From: Fonticula-like sp. SCN 57-25
Taxonomy: Eukaryota
Length of the DNA stretch: 64,000 nt
Reading direction: 5' to 3'
Assembly (NCBI GenBank): GCA_001724245.1
Contig: MEDX01000019.1
Location: forward strand, 1-64,000
How positions within the stretch are numbered: the stretch's first letter is position 1; the number at the start of each line of letters is the position of its first letter. The translations under genes were made by a program, and so were the position numbers. Under the pieces are notes generated by a model, which was not told the DNA's origin, searched no databases, and saw nothing but the letters and a program-made list of their open reading frames with translations. Shown here piece after piece: positions 23,150-29,626 of the stretch.

Positions 23150-23794
23150 ATGTCGGCGGGGAGCAGGGACGCGCTGCTGCAATGGCGGGCAAAGATGACG
23201 AGCTGCGATGAGCTGGCGTTCGTCGGTGATGCCGACGGAGGGTGGATAGCGGACGAGGCAATGCCCGACTTTGATGTCGACGATGTAATGTCGGACGACG
23301 AGGAACCCGATGCTGCTGTGCCCGATGTTGTGATGGTGGCGCCGTCGACCCACAGTGATCTCCTCTCGAGCGAAGTGTTTGTCGATCTTCCTGCTGATCT
23401 CGACGTGTCAATTTCACTGGACGAGGTTTCTTTTATCGGCGAGTCCAGCGGCGGCCTTCCGTTCCTTTCCGAAGAGCCGCCGCCATTCGCGAGCTCGCCT
23501 CCAAAGCATGCCGACGCGGGATCCCGCCTTGTACTCCTGACGGAATATATCGCGCCACCCGAGCAGCCCGACTCGCCATTCGAGTCAGTGGAGCGGCCAG
23601 AATCACTGGACGCGTCAATTGAACTCGACCCCCTTTTAGATTCAATTAGCGAAGCAGACAACGCTGATGCCGGTGAAGACTACGAGGCGCTGGACGCGCT
23701 GATCCGCCGCATGATGACATGCGCCCCCGCATCGTCATTAGAAGACCGCTTTGACCGGCGATTCATGCTCCACCGAGCTCAACTCTGCGTGTAA
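23150..23794 (+). CDS. Hypothetical acidic, probably disordered protein; intronless
   Basis: ORF 23081..23794 with first ATG at 23150; very D/E/S/P-rich; divergent from the PZP gene across an E-box and CCAAT. Confidence 0.55.
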   Translation: MSAGSRDALLQWRAKMTSCDELAFVGDADGGWIADEAMPDFDVDDVMSDDEEPDAAVPDVVMVAPSTHSDLLSSEVFVDLPADLDVSISLDEVSFIGESSGGLPFLSEEPPPFASSPPKHADAGSRLVLLTEYIAPPEQPDSPFESVERPESLDASIELDPLLDSISEADNADAGEDYEALDALIRRMMTCAPASSLEDRFDRRFMLHRAQLCV

Positions 23795-24032: not shown

Positions 24033-26954
24033 TTACGCGGTAAACGCAGCGGCAACAGCCACAATAGCAGCGGCAGCCACGACGAGCGGCGCCACGCCAG
24101 CGTACGACGCGCCAGATCCGGTCGGGGTCGGCGTCACAGACGGCGGGACGGTCGGCGGCGGCGTCAGACCAGGAACTACCAATCAGAAACAAGCATTTCA
24201 CATGTTAGCCAATCACGCTTTAGGTTATATGTGCACGCACCCTTGCTGAAGCCAACGACGCACTGCGCCATGCGGGAGCCAGCGTTGCCGGTGGGCTGCG
24301 TCGTGCAGTCATCGGGGTTGGAGTGGATGATGAAGCCGTGGCCGAGCGCGCTGCTCTTGCCGGTCGGCGAAAGACTACGCAAAATATTATGGTCAGTATG
24401 GGACGGAAGGTACAGGCAATTCACATAATATGTATCATCACATTACCACGATAATGTTTCCTCATAGAATATAATACACACCACAAATTGCTCAATACAT
24501 TTTTAACCATATTTCCATCATTATCCACTCCCGCCATTTCCCGCCACTTTTCTTTTGCGTACGTAAGCAGGTGAGTCGTAACGTTGGCATTAACAACACC
24601 GCCAGTCGACGCCTCAATGTTGCCGAGATCGCCCGCGTGGCGCACCTCGGGGTCGCAGCCGTGCGCCGTGTTGGACGGGTTAAAGTGACCGCCGGTCTTG
24701 GAGCCGCCGGCCGTATCGCTGACGTCACCAAAGGCGTGCACGTGGAAGCCGTGGATAGAAGAAGCGACAAAGTCGCGCGCGGAGACGGACACGTGGACGC
24801 CGGCGTCGGAGGGCGTGAGGCGGATGGTGCCGCGGACATTGGAGCTGTTGATGTCTTCGAGGACGCACGTGGCCTCGTAGTCGGTCACTGAATGGTGTGT
24901 CAGCGAAGAGAACAAAAGGAAGAGCGAAAAAGACTCAGTAGACAATGACGAAATATACAAAAGATAGGCATAAATAGACAGATATTGACCAGAACACAAC
25001 CAAATGTAGTCCATCGAAATCGACTTCAAAACATATACAATAAACATCAACTGTACCGATGGGCGGCGACACGACGGTAGTAGCGAGGGGCGACTCGAAC
25101 GCGTAGCCAACAACGCCAGCCATGAGAATGTTGCCAACTATAACACGTCAGCAAAAAAAAACATTTAAGTTCATCGGCACGTACCGTTGTAGCTAGCATC
25201 GCACGAGTCGACGTGCGATGAGAGGGACACACCGCGGCCGATAATAAAGCCGCTCGACGACGCGTCCAGCCTACAAATACGTTAGCCTAACCACATGGCA
25301 ACACACTCGCGTACGAAGAAAGAGGCGAAAACATGACAGCGTTGGCGCCAGTGGTCGCCGTATACTGCACATTGCCGAGGCCGCCAGCCTCGCCCGACGA
25401 GCCGCAGCCGTGCGGCGCGTCAGTCGGGTTGAAAACGCTGCCGAGATGCGCCGCGCGGCCGTCGGTCATGTCACCGAGCGTGTGAATGTGCACGCTGAGC
25501 GTCGTGTCGGCCGTAAAAGTGCCAGTGGGAATGTTCAAAACGTGGACGGCGGACGGGCGGCCGTTGTTGAAAACGCGGTGCGACTCGACGGTGGCGTACG
25601 CGCCGGCGGCAAAGGACGTGCCGGCGGCGGGGCGGAGGCGGGCGATGGAGTGCGCGTCGGGGATGGCGGCGGAGCCGCGGATGCCAATCACGCCGGCGGC
25701 GAACGGCGTGCTGCCGCGGTTGCCGTCGGGGACGGTCGTGCAGTCGTCCGAGCCAAAGACGCCGACGCCGCGGCCGACAATGTAGGCGCTGCTGCGTTTG
25801 AGGAGGAGAGCGCCGTCAGGGATGGCGACGCTCGCGCTGTAGACAATGCCGTCGGCGGAGGCGACAAAGTTGCCGAGGAAGCCGTGAATGCTCGTGCAGG
25901 CGGGGGAAGCGCTGGTAGGGTCAAAGATGGCGGCGTTGCTGAGGTCAGAAATGTCGCCGGCGGCGAGGACGTAGACGGAGCAGCGCTCGTTGGCGCCGAG
26001 GCCGGAGAGGAAGACGGTGGCGGTGAGGGTGGCGCCGTCGGAAGTCTCCTTGAAGGTGACCTGGCCGTTGACGTTGGCGCCGCGGAGGATGGCGACGGCG
26101 GACAGGAGGTCGCTCGTCACGGCTAAAGAGGGTGTCAGAAGCAAAAAAACTACGGTATTCTCAAAATGGCGCACCCGGAGGCGTAACGTTGGCGGGCTCC
26201 TCGGAGGAGCTCTTGATACCGATGACACCGGTGAGGAGGCGCGAGCCGGCATTGCCGGTAGGCTGGGTCACGCAATCGTCGGCAGCCGAGTGCACGACAA
26301 TCATGCGGCCGAGAATGTACGAGGTGCTGTTGGCGTCGAGCGAAGCGCCCTGGCTGACAAACATCTTGGAGCCGGTGCCATCGGCGCCGATCTCAATGTT
26401 GCCCTAAGGGATGCGTTAGAAAGAGGAGCGATGACGTCGACGCACGAGATCGCCAGCGTGGCGAGGGCCGGTGCAGGCGTGGGAGAGGCCTTCGGGGTTG
26501 TAGTGGCCGCCAGCAGCAGAGCCGTCGGTGCTAGCGAGATCGCCAAACTGGTGCAGGTGGACGCCGAGGGTGCGGCCTAGCGACGAGGCTTAGCAGGGAA
26601 GTGTGTGGGGGGAGAGGGGGGAGAGAAGCAAAAAGAGACGAAAAAAGATACAATAAAGTGAAGAAAAACGTACTCGCAGGCATGCCAGAAAGGGAAACTT
26701 CAACAGAAATGCCGGCCGTCTATTAAAACACCGTTAGCGAGATCGAGCTGCGAAGCGTCGACGCACGGTGTTGGTCAAAAGAACGGTGCCCGAGCATGTC
26801 GTGCATCCCGCCGTCGGAGTCAGCTTTGCAACAAAAGTGGGAAAAGCTAAAAGATCGTGCTGGTCAGTAAAATAAAAATATATTTTCGCGCGCGCGCAAA
26901 CGCACCGCTGGCCGTAGCCGCCAGCGCAAGCAGCAGAAGCGCCGCCGCCTTCAT
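24033..26954 (-). CDS. Secreted, probably GPI-anchored protein with four tandem Cu/Zn-SOD (SodC-like) domains; about 10 exons
   Basis: Signal peptide MKAAALLLLALAATASG. Domain 1 GVHLHQFGD..GGHYNP..HAC..RHAGDLGNI..IVVHSAADDCVTQPTGNAGSR. Domain 4 GFHVHAFGD..GGHFNP..HGC..RHAGDLGNI..IIHSNPDDCTTQPTGNAGSR. Two degenerate domains lie between. Tail is P/T-rich then SGASYAGVAPLVVAAAAIVAVAAAFTA-stop. Confidence 0.85.
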
Positions 26955-27523: not shown

Positions 27524-29626
27524 TCACCTGCGCGCCCCACCACGCCCGCCGCGCCCGCCGCGCCCAGCCGGCTTGCGCGCACGCTCGCCCACCTGCGCCG
27601 CCTTCATCGCCGCCTTGACACCCGCCGACTTGCGGTTCTTGTTCTTGACATTGACGCGGTCATAGTAGCGGTCGCCGACCTTTTGCTTATTGGTCGTCAT
27701 GCGCTTCTCCTTCTTGGGCGCGCGCTCCTCTCCCTCATCATCGCTGGCGGGCGCCTCGACCTCCTCGGCCTCGTCGGCACTGTCGCCGCGCACATCCTCA
27801 TCATCTTCCTCATCATCATCACCAACAGTGACGTCAGCAACCGATTCCTCCTCAGCCTCTTCCTCAGCCTCTTCTTCCTCTTCGGCCTCCTCCTCGGCCT
27901 TGCGCTTCCGCGTGGCGGCCGTCGCGGCCTCTGCCTTGCGCTTGGGCGTCCGCTTCTTGGCCACGTTCTCAATGTCCTCCTCGCCGTCGGCGTCGTTGAA
28001 CACCTCGTCCCAGTCAATGTCGCCGGCGTCGGCGCCGTCCGCGTCTTCGTCGACGGCCTCGCCAGTCTTCATGTCCTGCTCAGAGAACTCGCTCGAGACG
28101 CTAATCTTGCCAAAGATCTGCTTGACGGCAGGGACGGGCGCGGCCGAAACAGTCTCCTCAGTAGCTTCGGCCGTCTGCGCGGCCTCGGCGGCCTCTGCGG
28201 CGGCGGCGAGGGCGGCGGCGCGCTCCGGCGGCGACTTGTAGTACGGGATGCGCCCCCTGATCCAGTCGTTGAGCACCATGCGCGCGGCCGTGGTGCAGTC
28301 GGGCTCGGCGCCCTTGAGCAGCTTGCCCGCCTTGCGCGCGACGGCGCCGAGGAACTCTGTCGGCGAACCCCAGTTGTCGATGCCGTACGTGCGCACCATG
28401 TACTCGTGCTTGACGCGCTCGAGCACTTCGGGGATGTGGAACTCGGGGTCCTTGAGGTTCTCAATGCGAACAACGCCCTTGAGGACAATGTCAGACTCGC
28501 TGTCGCCCGTCGGGTAGACAACGCCGGGGCAGTCGATGAGGTAGAGGCGGCGCATCAAAGTGATGTACTGCCACACCTTGGTCTCGCCGGGGATCGGGGC
28601 GACCTTGCACACCTTCTTCTTGCGAAGCGTGTTGATGATGGACGACTTGCCGACATTAGGGTAGCCAATAAAGCCAACGCTGATCTGCTTCTTGTCGCCA
28701 TGGAGCTTGCCAAACTGGCGGAGAAGCTGGATCAGAGAGCCCTTACCGAAGGGGTTGGTGATCGAGGCGTGGAAGGCCAGCGTGGGGTACTCGGCAGAGA
28801 GCGTCTGGACCCAGCGCGCGGTGGCCCACGGCGGGACAAGATCGCACTTGTTCAGGACAAGCACGACGTGCTTGTGGGGGCACTCCTTGCGAATGTGCTG
28901 CTCGGCGTGGAAGCAGCGCGTGCCCATCGGGTCGCGCGCATCGAGCACCTGCACGACCACATCAGAAGAGTCAATAACCTTGTACAGCTCGCCCCAAATG
29001 CGCTTCGACTGGCCCTTGGAGAAGATGGGGTCCATCGCCTCGTCGCGCGCGTCGAGCGTGCCGGCGGCGGTTTTGCGATCAGTGTCCTTGTCAGAGCTGT
29101 AGCTGTCGCCCTGCGTGGCGGCCTTGCTGGCGAGATCTTCCATCGTGGAAAGGCTCATGCGCGGGCGCTTGCGGAGCGCCTTGGGGCCAAAGGTCTTGTC
29201 AAAGGACTCCACCTCGAGGAGGTTCATCTTGGTCTGCTTGGTGGAATCAAGCAGCAAGCTCATGGGGAGCTTGTGCTGACGCAGGAGAACCTGGTAGGGA
29301 TCGTGGACGCGCTTGCCCATCTCCTCGCGGAACGAGGTCAGCTCGTTCTGGCCGACGACGCGCGTGTTGCCGAACCAGCGGCGGTCGGGCTGAATGCGGA
29401 CCGGGCCCGTCTCGCTCGACTGGAGCGTCGCGGCGCGAACAAGCGAGCCGCGCTCATCGCGCACGGCCTTGCCCTTGGTGTACATCTTGAGGCGCTTCAG
29501 CTTTGAGCCGCTGCGGTAGAAATTCTCGCCCTTGTTAATAGGCGCGAGGGCATTCTGCGGGCCCGTCGTGCGGACGCCGCCGATCTTGCCATGCGTGGCG
29601 CGCTCCTTATCCTTGCTCTTGGCCAT
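27524..29626 (-). CDS. NOG2: Nucleolar GTP-binding protein 2; intronless
   Basis: NGP1NT region ([11 protein letters not shown]), [42 protein letters not shown] (circularly permuted GTPase), acidic tail. Confidence 0.97.

What the first reader, a model, noticed from the sequence alone, without database searches (positions are those of the whole stretch)
24033..26954. Cell-surface protein with four SodC-like domains in intact-dead-partial-intact order
Seen: domains 1 and 4 keep all Cu and Zn ligands (HxH, GGH, H, RHAGD, late H) and the catalytic Arg. Domain 2 has lost them (SVYVL, AAIFDP, IHGFLGN). Domain 3 keeps only HxH and one later His. The short DDxxxQPTGNAGSR loop resembles bacterial SodC more than the long SOD1 electrostatic loop. 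The first canonical disulfide Cys is absent, while all four domains carry an alternative pair (HAC/PAC/HGC and DDC/DSC). Known: animal CSRP has four GPI-anchored Cu-only SOD repeats lacking Zn ligands. Inference: this is an independent Cu/Zn version, possibly from a bacterial-type sodC, with pseudo-domains acting as scaffold or internal dimer partners.
Basis: partly seen in the sequence, partly recalled or inferred. Interest (0 to 1): 0.72.

Follow-up and report, generated by a model that had tools for sequence, protein, structure and literature searches.

The report
Surface protein with four SOD domains
An uncultured fungus-related microbe encodes a probably surface-anchored antioxidant enzyme made of four copper/zinc superoxide dismutase modules, two intact and two degenerate, and it belongs to a widespread family of such repeat proteins that the SOD papers I could search do not describe.

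Summary
A minus-strand gene (window 26954-24033; 11 exons, 10 GT-AG introns, 703 aa) encodes a signal peptide, four Pfam Sod_Cu domains, a Pro/Thr linker and a GPI-like tail. D1 and D4 keep all Cu and Zn ligands and the catalytic Arg. D2 keeps none. D3 keeps three histidines. The canonical disulfide is absent, and a new Cys pair is present in all four domains.

This is not a CSRP, but it is also not a one-off. Its relatives are 2- to 10-domain SOD repeat proteins of chytrid fungi, Amoebozoa and Ancoracysta. They share the new Cys pair, full Cu/Zn ligand sets, and a short prokaryote-type loop VII with a central proline. D1 and D4 fall in a supported clade made only of such domains, apart from SOD1-like and bacterial sequences. 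Whether the family came from bacteria is unresolved.

Dead D2 keeps 11 of 14 dimer-interface positions but only 1 of 9 active-site positions. An AlphaFold model of a chytrid relative packs its two domains like the SOD1 dimer. The likeliest mechanism is therefore two intramolecular pseudo-dimers, each with one catalytic domain.

No RNA data exist, and activity, metals, disulfide and anchor are all inferred.

The parts
24033..26954 (-). Whole gene, start codon to stop codon: 11 exons, 703 aa
   Evidence: Coordinate-built model; all 10 introns are GT-AG and the frame is open throughout. CDS GC3 is 80.5% against intron GC of 36-55%.
26906..26954 (-). Exon 1: start codon and most of the signal peptide (aa 1-17 end in exon 2 at 26845)
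   Evidence: Hydrophobic N-terminus, maximum 10-residue hydropathy 2.8. No signal-peptide predictor was available.
26206..26841 (-). Domain 1 (aa 19-168; exons 2-5): intact Cu/Zn SOD domain
   Evidence: Pfam Sod_Cu on exon 4 and exon 5 pieces. 9 of 9 ligand/catalytic positions match. It lies inside the 32-row Cys-pair clade.
25671..26108 (-). Domain 2 (aa 184-329; inside exon 6): dead SOD-fold domain
   Evidence: Pfam Sod_Cu covers positions 1-133 of the profile. No Cu or Zn ligand is kept. AlphaFold gives an 8-strand barrel matching SOD1 (TMt 0.78 to 1ozu). 11 of 14 interface positions are kept.
25094..25655 (-). Domain 3 (aa 335-491; exons 6-8): partly degenerate SOD-like domain
   Evidence: Only H46, H48 and H71 are kept; R143 is I. 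HMM pieces join across introns 6 and 7.
24174..24882 (-). Domain 4 (aa 506-657; exons 9-10, last codon completed in exon 11): intact Cu/Zn SOD domain with an extra Cys pair (positions 6 and 147)
   Evidence: Pfam E 3.2e-20 and 1.9e-08. Ligands align residue for residue to SOD1 and spinach SOD. 9 of 9 ligand/catalytic positions match.
24105..24173 (-). Pro/Thr-rich linker (aa 658-680)
   Evidence: Read from the translation.
24036..24104 (-). GPI-signal-like C-terminus (aa 681-703): small residues, short spacer, 17 hydrophobic residues to the end
   Evidence: Mean hydropathy of the tail is 2.82 and no residues follow it. By eye, 16 relatives listed end in a similar hydrophobic tail. No GPI predictor was available.
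26123..26174 (-). Intron 5, between D1 and D2
   Evidence: GT-AG, 52 nt. A related strain's contig skips 20 nt inside it, which is not a multiple of three.
24888..25056 (-). Intron 8, between D3 and D4
   Evidence: GT-AG, 169 nt, GC 36%. A related strain replaces 118 nt with 51 other letters here, removing the only upstream in-frame ATG that could start a separate D4 gene.
25271..25314 (-). Intron 6 (in D3). It sits at the same aligned position and phase (2) as intron 9 (24375-24562) in D4
   Evidence: Phases; position from the domain alignment.

Best explanation
This is one eukaryotic gene for a secreted, probably GPI-anchored, cell-surface superoxide dismutase built from four Cu/Zn-SOD barrels. 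D1 and D4 are the likely catalytic units: each has the full bimetallic site, the second-sphere Asp124, Thr137 and Arg143. D2 (dead) and D3 (mostly dead) are kept as structural partners. The four barrels most likely fold into two intramolecular SOD1-like pseudo-dimers, D1 with D2 and D3 with D4, each with one working active site. Each barrel is probably stabilised by a family-specific disulfide between the zinc loop (position ~73) and the start of the short loop VII (position ~126), in place of the canonical C57-C146 bridge. D4 probably has a second bridge between strand 1 and strand 8. The protein would remove superoxide outside the cell, for protection or for ROS signalling. It belongs to a eukaryotic family of tandem bimetallic SOD repeat proteins found in chytrids, Amoebozoa, Ancoracysta and metagenomic protists. 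What is shown here: the gene structure, the domains, the ligand pattern, family membership, the SOD fold of D2, and the predicted dimer-like packing in one relative. What is inferred: enzyme activity, metal content, both disulfides, the GPI anchor, which domains pair in this protein, and the biological role.
For: Gene and single-gene status:
- The model is coherent.
- D2 and most of D3 share one 808-nt exon.
- Exon 6 holds no ATG-coded Met before D3, and intron 5 holds no ATG, so D2 cannot start on its own.
- Contigs of related strains (runs X4, X5) gave 40 listed substitutions: 10 in exons (2112 nt), of which 7 are synonymous and 3 conservative; 17 in introns (810 nt); and 13 outside the gene.
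- Of 8 listed indels, 6 lie in introns, 2 in the 3' flank and 0 in exons. Both joints lie in introns.

Domains: Pfam matches and the ligand table.

Family:
- phmmer of exon 6 against 1.84 billion representatives gave 63 hits at E <= 0.001, one of them the window's own ORF.
- 41 of the 62 relatives scored carry two or more near-full domains, up to 10.
- 120 of 144 of their domains have 4 Cu ligands, 4 Zn ligands and R/K143.
- Cys73 and Cys126 co-occur: 87 domains have both, 40 neither, 17 only one. Cys6 and Cys147: 21 both, 118 neither, 5 one. Canonical Cys57 appears in 1 of 144 (Fisher p about 1e-20 for each pair, not corrected for relatedness).
- Of 30 hits looked up, 17 name an organism: 14 chytrid proteins, Ancoracysta, Physarum and Paradermamoeba. 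The last three and an MMETSP entry are transcripts, so the multi-domain layout is expressed in relatives.

Tree: D1 and D4 sit in a 32-row clade (UFBoot 96, SH-aLRT 90) made only of Cys-pair domains from eukaryotic repeat proteins. Forcing them together with the 8 SOD1-like rows costs 30 lnL units (p-AU 0.034).

Pairing:
- The AlphaFold model of the chytrid two-domain relative P0007 (pLDDT 88.6, pTM 0.87) aligns over both domains to the tethered SOD1 dimer 6dtk (350 columns, TMt 0.86-0.89, rmsd 2.5-4.2 A).
- Linkers in this protein are 15, 5 and 14 residues. The six-domain Blyttiomyces protein has 15, 81, 14, 105 and 14.
- D2 keeps 11 of 14 interface positions, 1 of 9 active-site positions and 42 of 113 other positions.
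Against: - No RNA run holds the locus, so neither splicing nor the single transcript has been observed.
- 29 further differences were not shown, so the exon/intron tally is partial.
- The pairing model comes from a relative, and AlphaFold may simply reproduce the SOD1 dimer it knows.
- The window's own D1, D3 and D4 could not be folded, because spliced sequences are not accepted by the folding tool.
- In the exon 6 model D2 and the truncated D3 are not dimer-like (6dtk rmsd about 10.8 A). This fits D1-D2 and D3-D4 pairs but does not show them.
- Disulfide geometry could not be measured, because no coordinates are returned.
- 15 family domains have Cys126 without Cys73, so that Cys may have another partner in some members.
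- The AU rejection is marginal and the group was named after the tree had been seen.
- The signal peptide and GPI signal rest on hydropathy and inspection alone.
Confidence: 0.7

Rival explanations
1. The four domains are not one protein. D1 and D4 are separate secreted SOD genes, and D2-D3 is a decaying remnant between them, so the gene model is wrong.
For: No RNA evidence exists for the model. If intron 5 is retained, the frame stops three codons after exon 5. An in-frame ATG with a hydrophobic stretch lies inside intron 8, upstream of D4.
Against: The 808-nt D2-D3 exon has no stop or frameshift and the highest GC3 (D2 89.7%, D3 79.6%). The listed changes in D2 and D3 in related strains are synonymous (codons 257 and 465). 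D2 has no start codon or signal peptide of its own. The intron 8 ATG lies in a stretch that a related strain replaces (118 nt by 51), with 36% GC. Relatives' transcripts carry 2-6 domains in one ORF.
Confidence: 0.07
2. It is a member of the CSRP / Cu-only SOD lineage of opisthokonts, that is, a holomycotan CSRP.
For: It has four tandem SOD-like domains, a signal peptide and a GPI-like tail, some domains have lost the Cu site, and loop VII is shortened. All of these are listed for CSRPs in PMC13017621 section 8. The host is an opisthokont.
Against: D1 and D4 keep all four Zn ligands, whereas CSRP and Cu-only SODs lack the Zn site. The position of the Cu-only Glu (E110 signature) is His in D1 and D4. 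The canonical disulfide that the review says all CSRP repeats retain is absent. None of the 63 hits of the exhaustive search shows the Cu-only pattern as a family trait: 120 of 144 domains have full Zn sites.
Confidence: 0.03
3. The protein is not mainly an enzyme. It is a surface copper/zinc-binding, adhesion or ROS-sensing scaffold in which even D1 and D4 serve to hold metal rather than to turn over superoxide.
For: Half of the domains are catalytically dead yet conserved. SOD-like domains are known to act as chaperones or partners, for example CCS domain II (PMC13017621 abstract and section 8). The short loop lacks the charged residues of the SOD1 electrostatic loop.
Against: D1 and D4 keep every first- and second-sphere residue scored, including Thr137 and Arg143, which serve substrate guidance rather than metal binding. 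In PMC8382915, a bacterial relative with the same short-loop class retained SOD activity in an in-gel assay (figure legend passage seen).
Confidence: 0.15
4. The gene is a recent horizontal acquisition of a bacterial sodC that was duplicated in this lineage.
For: Loop VII has the central proline that PMC8382915 calls a prokaryotic signature. The canonical disulfide is lacking, as in that paper's planctomycete Group 3b. The best small hits of D4 include Prolixibacter, Rhodopirellula, Singulisphaera and Pirellulales.
Against: The gene has ten spliceosomal introns, host-like GC3, a eukaryotic signal peptide and a GPI-like tail. Its closest relatives are eukaryotic repeat proteins in a supported clade that excludes all bacterial rows. 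The family spans chytrids, Amoebozoa and Ancoracysta, so any transfer would be ancient.
Confidence: 0.05

Closest known systems
[quoted passage not shown]
   Same: Extracellular, secreted or GPI-anchored polypeptides made of tandem SOD barrels. [quoted passage not shown]
   Different: CSRP repeats lack the Zn site and keep the canonical disulfide. Here the intact domains have the full Zn site, and no domain has the canonical disulfide. In CSRPs the dead repeats are N-terminal; here they are the two inner domains. CSRP linkers are 5-9 residues; here they are 15, 5 and 14.
Fungal/oomycete Cu-only SODs (Candida albicans SOD5 type)
   Same: Extracellular, GPI-anchored or secreted SOD-fold enzymes of Holomycota with an abbreviated loop VII (PMC13017621 section 6).
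   Different: SOD5-type enzymes are single ~25 kDa domains without Zn ligands, with the E110/D113 signature and the canonical disulfide. The protein here is a four-domain bimetallic type.
Bacterial 'Group 3a/3b' eukaryote-like CuZnSODs (Bacteroidetes bacterium enzyme, PDB 7B4O/7B4P; planctomycete Group 3b)
   Same: Short loop VII with a central proline. Group 3b lacks the disulfide cysteines. The dimer-interface residues are E-class-like (PMC8382915 passages). 7b4o/7b4p are among the best single-domain PDB matches by sequence and by fold.
   Different: Those are single-domain bacterial proteins. This is a four-domain, intron-bearing eukaryotic gene with a new Cys pair, and its domains fall in a clade separate from the bacterial rows.
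Eukaryotic SOD1 homodimer (and the tethered dimer 6DTK)
   Same: Same barrel, same eight metal ligands, Asp124 and Arg143 in D1 and D4. A relative's two domains are predicted to pack like the SOD1 dimer.
   Different: SOD1 has a 22-residue loop between H120 and R143 without the central proline and has the C57-C146 disulfide. It is a dimer of identical chains with two active sites, not one chain with active/inactive pairs.
CCS domain II paired with SOD1 (PDB 1JK9)
   Same: A SOD-fold domain without a Cu site pairs with an active SOD barrel through the dimer interface. This is the nearest known analogue of the proposed D1-D2 and D3-D4 pairs (PMC13017621; 1jk9 is listed among the fold matches).
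   Different: CCS is a separate, transient, intracellular partner that delivers Cu. Here the partner is fused, permanent and extracellular. No chaperone role was tested.
Dictyostelium discoideum GPI-anchored SodC (Veeranki et al. 2008)
   Same: A GPI-anchored Cu/Zn-type SOD of a protist with a role in Ras/PI3K signalling. I saw the title in reference lists and a passage in PMC13081876. Amoebozoan members of the present family exist (Physarum, Paradermamoeba).
   Different: I could not read that paper or fetch the sequence. My recollection that SodC has two SOD domains and belongs to this family is unverified.

Membership tests
Cu/Zn superoxide dismutase fold family (Pfam PF00080 Sod_Cu) | Profile match above the curated cut-off | tested here: met
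   5 of 6 exon pieces score 35-73 bits against a cut-off of 28.9; all four domains are covered.
Cu/Zn superoxide dismutase fold family (Pfam PF00080 Sod_Cu) | Four Cu ligands, four Zn ligands and the catalytic Arg | tested here: met
   Met in D1 and D4 (Cu 4 of 4, Zn 4 of 4, Arg). Not met in D2 (0, 0) or D3 (2, 1).
Cu/Zn superoxide dismutase fold family (Pfam PF00080 Sod_Cu) | Canonical intrasubunit disulfide (C57-C146) | tested here: not met
   No Cys at position 57 or 146 in any of the four domains.
Cu/Zn superoxide dismutase fold family (Pfam PF00080 Sod_Cu) | Eight-stranded Greek-key barrel | tested here: met
   Tested for D2 only: AlphaFold gives 8 strands, with TMt 0.78 and rmsd 2.8 A to human SOD1 1ozu. 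D1, D3 and D4 could not be folded because they are spliced.
Cu/Zn superoxide dismutase fold family (Pfam PF00080 Sod_Cu) | Superoxide dismutase activity and Cu/Zn content | not testable with these tools
   Needs recombinant protein.
CSRP / Cu-only SOD | No functional Zn site (two Zn ligands replaced; E110/D113 signature) | tested here: not met
   D1 and D4 have H63, H71, H80 and D83. Definition taken from PMC13017621 section 6.
CSRP / Cu-only SOD | Conserved canonical disulfide in every repeat | tested here: not met
   Absent in 4 of 4 domains. Definition from PMC13017621 section 8.
CSRP / Cu-only SOD | Tandem SOD-like repeats on one extracellular, GPI-anchored or secreted chain | tested here: met
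   Four domains in one model, with a signal-like N-terminus and a GPI-like tail. The anchor is heuristic only.
CSRP / Cu-only SOD | Grouping with CSRP or SOD5 sequences in a tree | not tested
   No CSRP or SOD5 sequence could be fetched with the searches left.
Tandem bimetallic SOD repeat proteins of chytrids, Amoebozoa and Ancoracysta (unnamed family defined here) | Cys pair at positions ~73 and ~126 with no canonical disulfide | tested here: met
   Present in 4 of 4 window domains and in 87 of 144 relatives' domains; canonical C57 appears in 1 of 144.
Tandem bimetallic SOD repeat proteins of chytrids, Amoebozoa and Ancoracysta (unnamed family defined here) | Short loop VII (H120 to R143 about 15-16 residues) with a central Pro | tested here: met
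   16, 15, 14 and 16 residues in D1-D4. The Pro is present in D1, D2 and D4 but not in D3.
Tandem bimetallic SOD repeat proteins of chytrids, Amoebozoa and Ancoracysta (unnamed family defined here) | Placement in the family's clade | tested here: met
   D1 and D4 lie in a 32-row clade (96/90) made only of such domains. In the quick tree, D2 and D3 (long branches) fell in a 22-row set that otherwise holds only chytrid domains, with SH-aLRT 81.
Bacterial Group 3b E-class-like CuZnSOD (PMC8382915) | Short electrostatic loop with central proline; no disulfide cysteines | tested here: met
   definition from passages.
Bacterial Group 3b E-class-like CuZnSOD (PMC8382915) | Single-domain bacterial protein grouping with planctomycete enzymes | tested here: not met
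   Four domains, 10 introns, a eukaryotic contig; the clade excludes the Rhodopirellula, Singulisphaera and Pirellulales rows.
GPI-anchored proteins | N-terminal signal peptide plus a C-terminal omega region, spacer and terminal hydrophobic segment | tested here: inconclusive
   The pattern is present by inspection and hydropathy. No SignalP, NetGPI or PredGPI was available.

The most novel reading that the evidence does not exclude
The window's protein is a member of a second, ancient eukaryotic Cu/Zn-SOD lineage. This lineage is extracellular, tandemly repeated and free of the CCS-linked canonical disulfide, and it keeps the prokaryote-type short loop VII with its central proline. That would make it the eukaryotic counterpart of the bacterial 'Group 3' enzymes proposed as precursors of SOD1. 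In it, evolution has turned the SOD homodimer into a fused heterodimer with a single active site, as in D1-D2 and D3-D4 here. If so, three statements in current papers need revising: that the proline loop is absent from all eukaryotic CuZnSODs, that fungal Cu/Zn SODs are exclusively intracellular, and that tandem amplification of SOD domains is an animal-lineage (CSRP) event.
Probability: 0.3. Interest if true: 0.75.

Novelty: new variant of a known kind. Interest (0 to 1): 0.62.

Why it matters
SOD reviews describe two extracellular opisthokont solutions: single Cu-only SODs in fungi and tandem Cu-only CSRPs in animals. A 2026 review states that fungal bimetallic Cu/Zn SODs are exclusively intracellular (PMC13017621 section 6). 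A 2021 paper states that the short proline-bearing loop VII is absent from all eukaryotic CuZnSODs in OMA and the PDB (PMC8382915 passage).

This gene and its chytrid, amoebozoan and Ancoracysta relatives show a third solution that neither paper mentions: tandem, secreted or GPI-type, fully bimetallic SOD domains with that prokaryote-type loop and a different disulfide. 'Chytrid' occurs 0 times in both papers. 'Tandem' occurs 0 times in PMC8382915; in PMC13017621 it occurs 5 times, and the passages seen concern Cu-only CSRP repeats. Four searches aimed at repeat or multi-domain SODs listed no paper whose title or abstract start describes this family. The searches returned only CSRP papers. I judged all of these from search listings only.

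The window's protein adds a natural experiment: pairs of one live and one dead barrel. Such pairs could show what the SOD dimer partner contributes apart from its own catalysis. The family also bears on where eukaryotic Cu/Zn SODs came from and on how they mature without CCS.

Tried and rejected
- The search for homologous proteins on exon 6, longer proteins only: no hit at E <= 0.001 among 8000 candidates. This word-index miss was overturned by the exhaustive search.
- Whole genome: none is held for this window.
- RNA evidence: no RNA holder is listed for the locus. Only DNA contigs could be laid.
- Runs X2 and X3 gave identical pieces with no differences and may be one data set filed twice, or the source organism. 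They add nothing independent.
- Folding the window's own D1, D3, D4 or the whole protein: not possible, because spliced sequences are not accepted by the folding tool. I folded exon 6 and a relative instead.
- Cys-Cys distances: the structure tool returns no coordinates.
- Complex prediction: not used. The only window domain available unspliced is D2, and a SOD-SOD pair would pass by likeness to solved dimers.
- Dictyostelium SodC: two look-ups by PubMed id failed, and the searches gave only citations.
- ESM Atlas look-up of a two-domain relative returned generic Sod_Cu clusters only.
- Earlier-findings look-ups near the locus and by sequence gave nothing.
- An alternative donor for intron 6 giving a 32-nt intron, and a donor giving a 95-nt intron that deletes two strands, were considered by eye and dropped. 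I chose the GTACGC donor (44-nt intron), which has the same hexamer, position and phase as D4's intron 9.
- The quick tree that included D2 and D3 joined these two long branches and flagged the join. I left them out of the careful tree, together with three degenerate metagenome domains and one long bacterial row.


Full report
**1. What is at the locus**

The finding's end coordinates are the start codon (26954) and stop codon (24033-24035) of a minus-strand gene interrupted by introns. I built a model from coordinates alone. It has 11 exons and 10 introns of 42-188 nt, every intron is GT...AG, and the frame stays open throughout to give 703 aa. Exons have GC3 of 80.5%, against 36-55% GC in the introns.

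The product reads, in order:
- a hydrophobic signal-like N-terminus;
- four SOD-like domains: D1 aa 19-168, D2 184-329, D3 335-491, D4 506-657;
- a Pro/Thr-rich linker;
- a tail of small residues, a six-residue spacer and 17 hydrophobic residues that end the protein.

Pfam Sod_Cu matched 5 of 6 exon pieces above its cut-off; the 28-aa exon 7 piece gave nothing. A six-frame scan of the whole window with a family HMM found SOD-like pieces only here, and their HMM coordinates abut at the predicted junctions.

**2. Is the model right without RNA?**

No RNA run holds the locus. The DNA comes from a bioreactor metagenome, and no genome is held. I therefore used contigs from related strains in two other metagenomes, runs X4 and X5.

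- Of the 40 substitutions listed, 13 lie outside the gene, 17 in predicted introns (810 nt) and 10 in exons (2112 nt).
- Of the 10 in exons, 7 are synonymous third-position changes and 3 are conservative (S to T, T to K, I to V).
- Of 8 listed indels, 6 lie in introns 4, 7 and 10, and 2 lie in the 3' flank. None lies in an exon.
- Both joints lie in introns: a 20-nt skip in intron 5, and 118 nt replaced by 51 in intron 8.
- 29 further differences were not shown, so this tally is partial.

Three more points argue for one gene. D2 and most of D3 share one 808-nt exon. D2 has no ATG or signal peptide of its own. The only in-frame ATG upstream of D4 sits in the AT-rich stretch of intron 8 that the related strain replaces. 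I put a separate-genes reading at about 0.07.

**3. The observation**

| Domain | Status | Positions kept (SOD1 numbering) |
|---|---|---|
| D1 | intact | H46, H48, H63, H71, H80, D83, H120, D124, T137, R143 |
| D2 | dead | none of the eight metal ligands; D124 only |
| D3 | partial | H46, H48, H71 only |
| D4 | intact | same full set as D1 |

The alignment of D4's first exon to human and spinach SOD shows the ligands in register. Neither canonical cysteine (57, 146) is present in any domain. All four domains have Cys at ~73 (two residues after H71) and at ~126 (just after D124-D125). D4 has an additional pair at positions 6 and 147.

**4. Whose gene**

The neighbouring single-exon NOG2 gene (27524-29626, minus strand) is closest to Fonticula alba (57% identity over 92% of the query). 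Allomyces, Paraphysoderma, chytrids and zygomycete-grade fungi follow. The host is therefore a deep-branching, uncultured member of Holomycota. That same 'genome' label also covers a phage, so the earlier notes are only loosely relevant.

**5. Relatives**

A word-index search of longer proteins found nothing. The exhaustive phmmer of exon 6 (D2 plus most of D3) against 1.84 billion representatives gave 63 hits at E <= 0.001, one of them the window's own ORF.

- After splitting the hits into domains, 41 of the 62 relatives scored carry two or more near-full SOD domains. Counts of 2, 4, 6, 8 and 10 are common.
- I looked up 30 of the hits, and 17 name an organism. Fourteen are chytrid proteins (Blyttiomyces, Phlyctochytrium, Zopfochytrium, Irineochytrium, Entophlyctis, Nowakowskiella, Borealophlyctis, Quaeritorhiza, Rhizophlyctis and a Chytridiales species). 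The others are Ancoracysta twista, Physarum polycephalum and Paradermamoeba levis.
- The last three, and an MMETSP entry, are transcripts. The multi-domain layout is therefore expressed in relatives.
- Of 144 relatives' domains, 120 have all four Cu ligands, all four Zn ligands and R/K143. Ten have two or fewer Cu ligands.
- Cys73 and Cys126 co-occur: 87 domains have both, 40 neither, 17 only one. Cys6 and Cys147 co-occur: 21 both, 118 neither, 5 one. Canonical Cys57 occurs in 1 of 144. Fisher p is about 1e-20 for each pair, not corrected for relatedness.
- The H120 to R143 distance is 14-17 residues in most family domains, against 22 in SOD1-like sequences.
- Most relatives begin with a hydrophobic signal-like stretch. 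By eye, 16 of those listed end in a hydrophobic tail.

What is unusual here is that two of the four domains are degenerate.

**6. Relation to SOD1, bacterial SodC and CSRP**

D4's first exon finds eukaryotic SOD1-type structures best in the PDB. D1's C-terminal half aligns without a gap only to short-loop enzymes: 8imd, the Bacteroidetes bacterium enzyme 7b4o, and B. subtilis YojM. It needs a six-residue gap against SOD1.

Of the 120 best proteins of at most 188 aa found with D4's first exon, 117 could be scored; 3 covered too little of the HMM. Of those 117, 102 have the 15-16-residue loop, nearly all with the central proline, and 11 have the 22-residue loop. Among the named hits scored, the short-loop ones are bacteria: Prolixibacter, Rhodopirellula, Singulisphaera, Pirellulales and a verrucomicrobium. 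The long-loop ones are animals (Argiope, Atheta, Clytia) and two single-domain Spizellomyces proteins.

PMC8382915 (passages read) calls the proline loop a signature of prokaryotic CuZnSODs that is 'completely absent' from eukaryotic ones in OMA and the PDB. It also describes planctomycete 'Group 3b' enzymes without the disulfide.

A careful IQ-TREE of 75 domains used 148 columns. D2, D3, three degenerate metagenome domains and one long bacterial row were left out. It places D1 and D4 in a 32-row clade (UFBoot 96, SH-aLRT 90) made only of Cys-pair domains of eukaryotic repeat proteins. The 8 SOD1-like rows form their own clade (96/90) inside a weaker 27-row group (82/88) with the bacterial rows. 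Forcing D1 and D4 together with the SOD1-like rows costs 30 lnL units (p-AU 0.034). I named that group after seeing the tree, so this is only a marginal rejection. In the quick tree that included them, D2 and D3 fell in a 22-row set that otherwise holds only chytrid domains (SH-aLRT 81). They joined each other as long branches, and that join is not trustworthy.

There is no outgroup, so the direction of any bacterium-eukaryote transfer is open. I could not fetch CSRP or SOD5 sequences. CSRP membership was therefore tested by the defining features given in PMC13017621 (sections 6 and 8 read): no Zn site and a retained canonical disulfide. Both fail here.

**7. How it probably works**

The dead D2 matches the family consensus at 1 of 9 ligand/catalytic positions, at 11 of 14 positions equivalent to the SOD1 dimer interface, and at 42 of 113 other positions. 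For D3 the figures are 4 of 9, 7 of 12 and 37 of 111. I recalled the interface list from SOD1 knowledge and mapped it through the alignment.

AlphaFold folds D2 as an eight-stranded barrel (the first 150 residues of the exon 6 model mostly have pLDDT 65-95). It matches human SOD1 with TMt 0.78.

A two-domain chytrid relative, P0007, folds with pLDDT 88.6 and pTM 0.87. It superposes over both domains on the tethered SOD1 dimer 6dtk: 350 columns, TMt 0.86-0.89, rmsd 2.5-4.2 A.

Linkers in the window protein are 15, 5 and 14 residues. The six-domain Blyttiomyces protein has 15, 81, 14, 105 and 14, which suggests two-domain units. Chytrid first and second domains form separate groups in the tree.

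I therefore propose two fused pseudo-dimers, D1-D2 and D3-D4, each with one live site. The 73-126 disulfide would tie the zinc loop to loop VII in place of the canonical bridge. This pairing is inferred from a relative. In the exon 6 model D2 and the truncated D3 are not dimer-like (rmsd about 10.8 A to 6dtk), which fits the proposal but does not prove it. Activity, metal content, both disulfides and the anchor are untested.

**8. Literature**

PMC13017621 says that fungi kept the extracellular Cu-only SOD as a single domain, that tandem amplification gave the animal CSRPs, and that fungal bimetallic Cu/Zn SODs are exclusively intracellular. 'Chytrid' occurs 0 times in it.

Four full-text searches aimed at repeat or multi-domain SODs listed no paper whose title or abstract start describes this family. 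They were: superoxide dismutase + chytrid + tandem + GPI; 'two SOD domains'; SodC + Dictyostelium + 'SOD domains'; and superoxide dismutase + tandem + Cu Zn + GPI-anchored + amoeba. The searches returned CSRP papers only. I judged all of these from search listings.

The GPI-anchored SodC of Dictyostelium (Veeranki et al. 2008) is the likeliest characterised relative. I saw only its citation and a secondary description and could not read the paper. Its domain count is recalled, not checked. Subscription papers and supplements I could not see may hold descriptions of this family.

That is a different kind of domain, but it points the same way.

**9. Verdict**

The gene is a new variant of a known kind: an extracellular tandem SOD repeat protein of the bimetallic type. 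It has a prokaryote-type loop and a replacement disulfide, and here it shows an intact-dead-partial-intact order that suggests fused one-site pseudo-dimers.

Noticed in passing
window 27524-29626 (-): A single-exon 700-aa nucleolar GTPase (NOG2/NUC091) gene lies 570 nt upstream of the SOD gene on the same strand. Its best named match is Fonticula alba (57% identity), then Allomyces and chytrids. I used it only to place the host.
   Followed up: partly
window 25271-25314 and 24375-24562: Intron 6 (in D3) and intron 9 (in D4) sit at the same aligned codon and the same phase (2) and share the donor GTACGC. D1 and D2 have no intron there. This suggests that D3 and D4 arose by duplication of an intron-bearing unit, or that D1 and D2 lost the intron.
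   Followed up: partly
relatives P0012, P0015, P0020, P0036, P0037: In Ancoracysta, Physarum and several metagenome proteins, two domain types alternate along the chain: one with the Cys73/Cys126 pair and one with Leu/Gly at those positions. The two types fall in different parts of the tree. Chytrid proteins and the window protein have only the Cys-pair type.
   Followed up: partly
proteins P0219 and P0283 (Spizellomyces): Two chytrid single-domain Cu/Zn SODs have a signal-like N-terminus, the canonical cysteines and the long 22-residue loop. They look like secreted bimetallic SODs in fungi, which a 2026 review says do not occur.
   Followed up: no
window 23150-23794 (+): A 214-aa ORF for a very acidic, Asp/Glu/Ser/Pro-rich protein lies just downstream of the SOD gene on the other strand. 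It was not examined.
   Followed up: no
window 24934-25053 in run X4: A related strain in an aquatic metagenome replaces 118 nt of intron 8 with 51 other letters and differs by 2-10% elsewhere. Relatives of this organism therefore occur in at least two other habitat types by run label. Run X5 is labelled as a fungus metagenome.
   Followed up: partly
relatives P0004, P0027, P0035, P0054, P0062: A few other family members also carry domains with two or fewer Cu ligands (10 of 144 domains). Loss of the active site inside a repeat protein has therefore happened more than once.
   Followed up: partly
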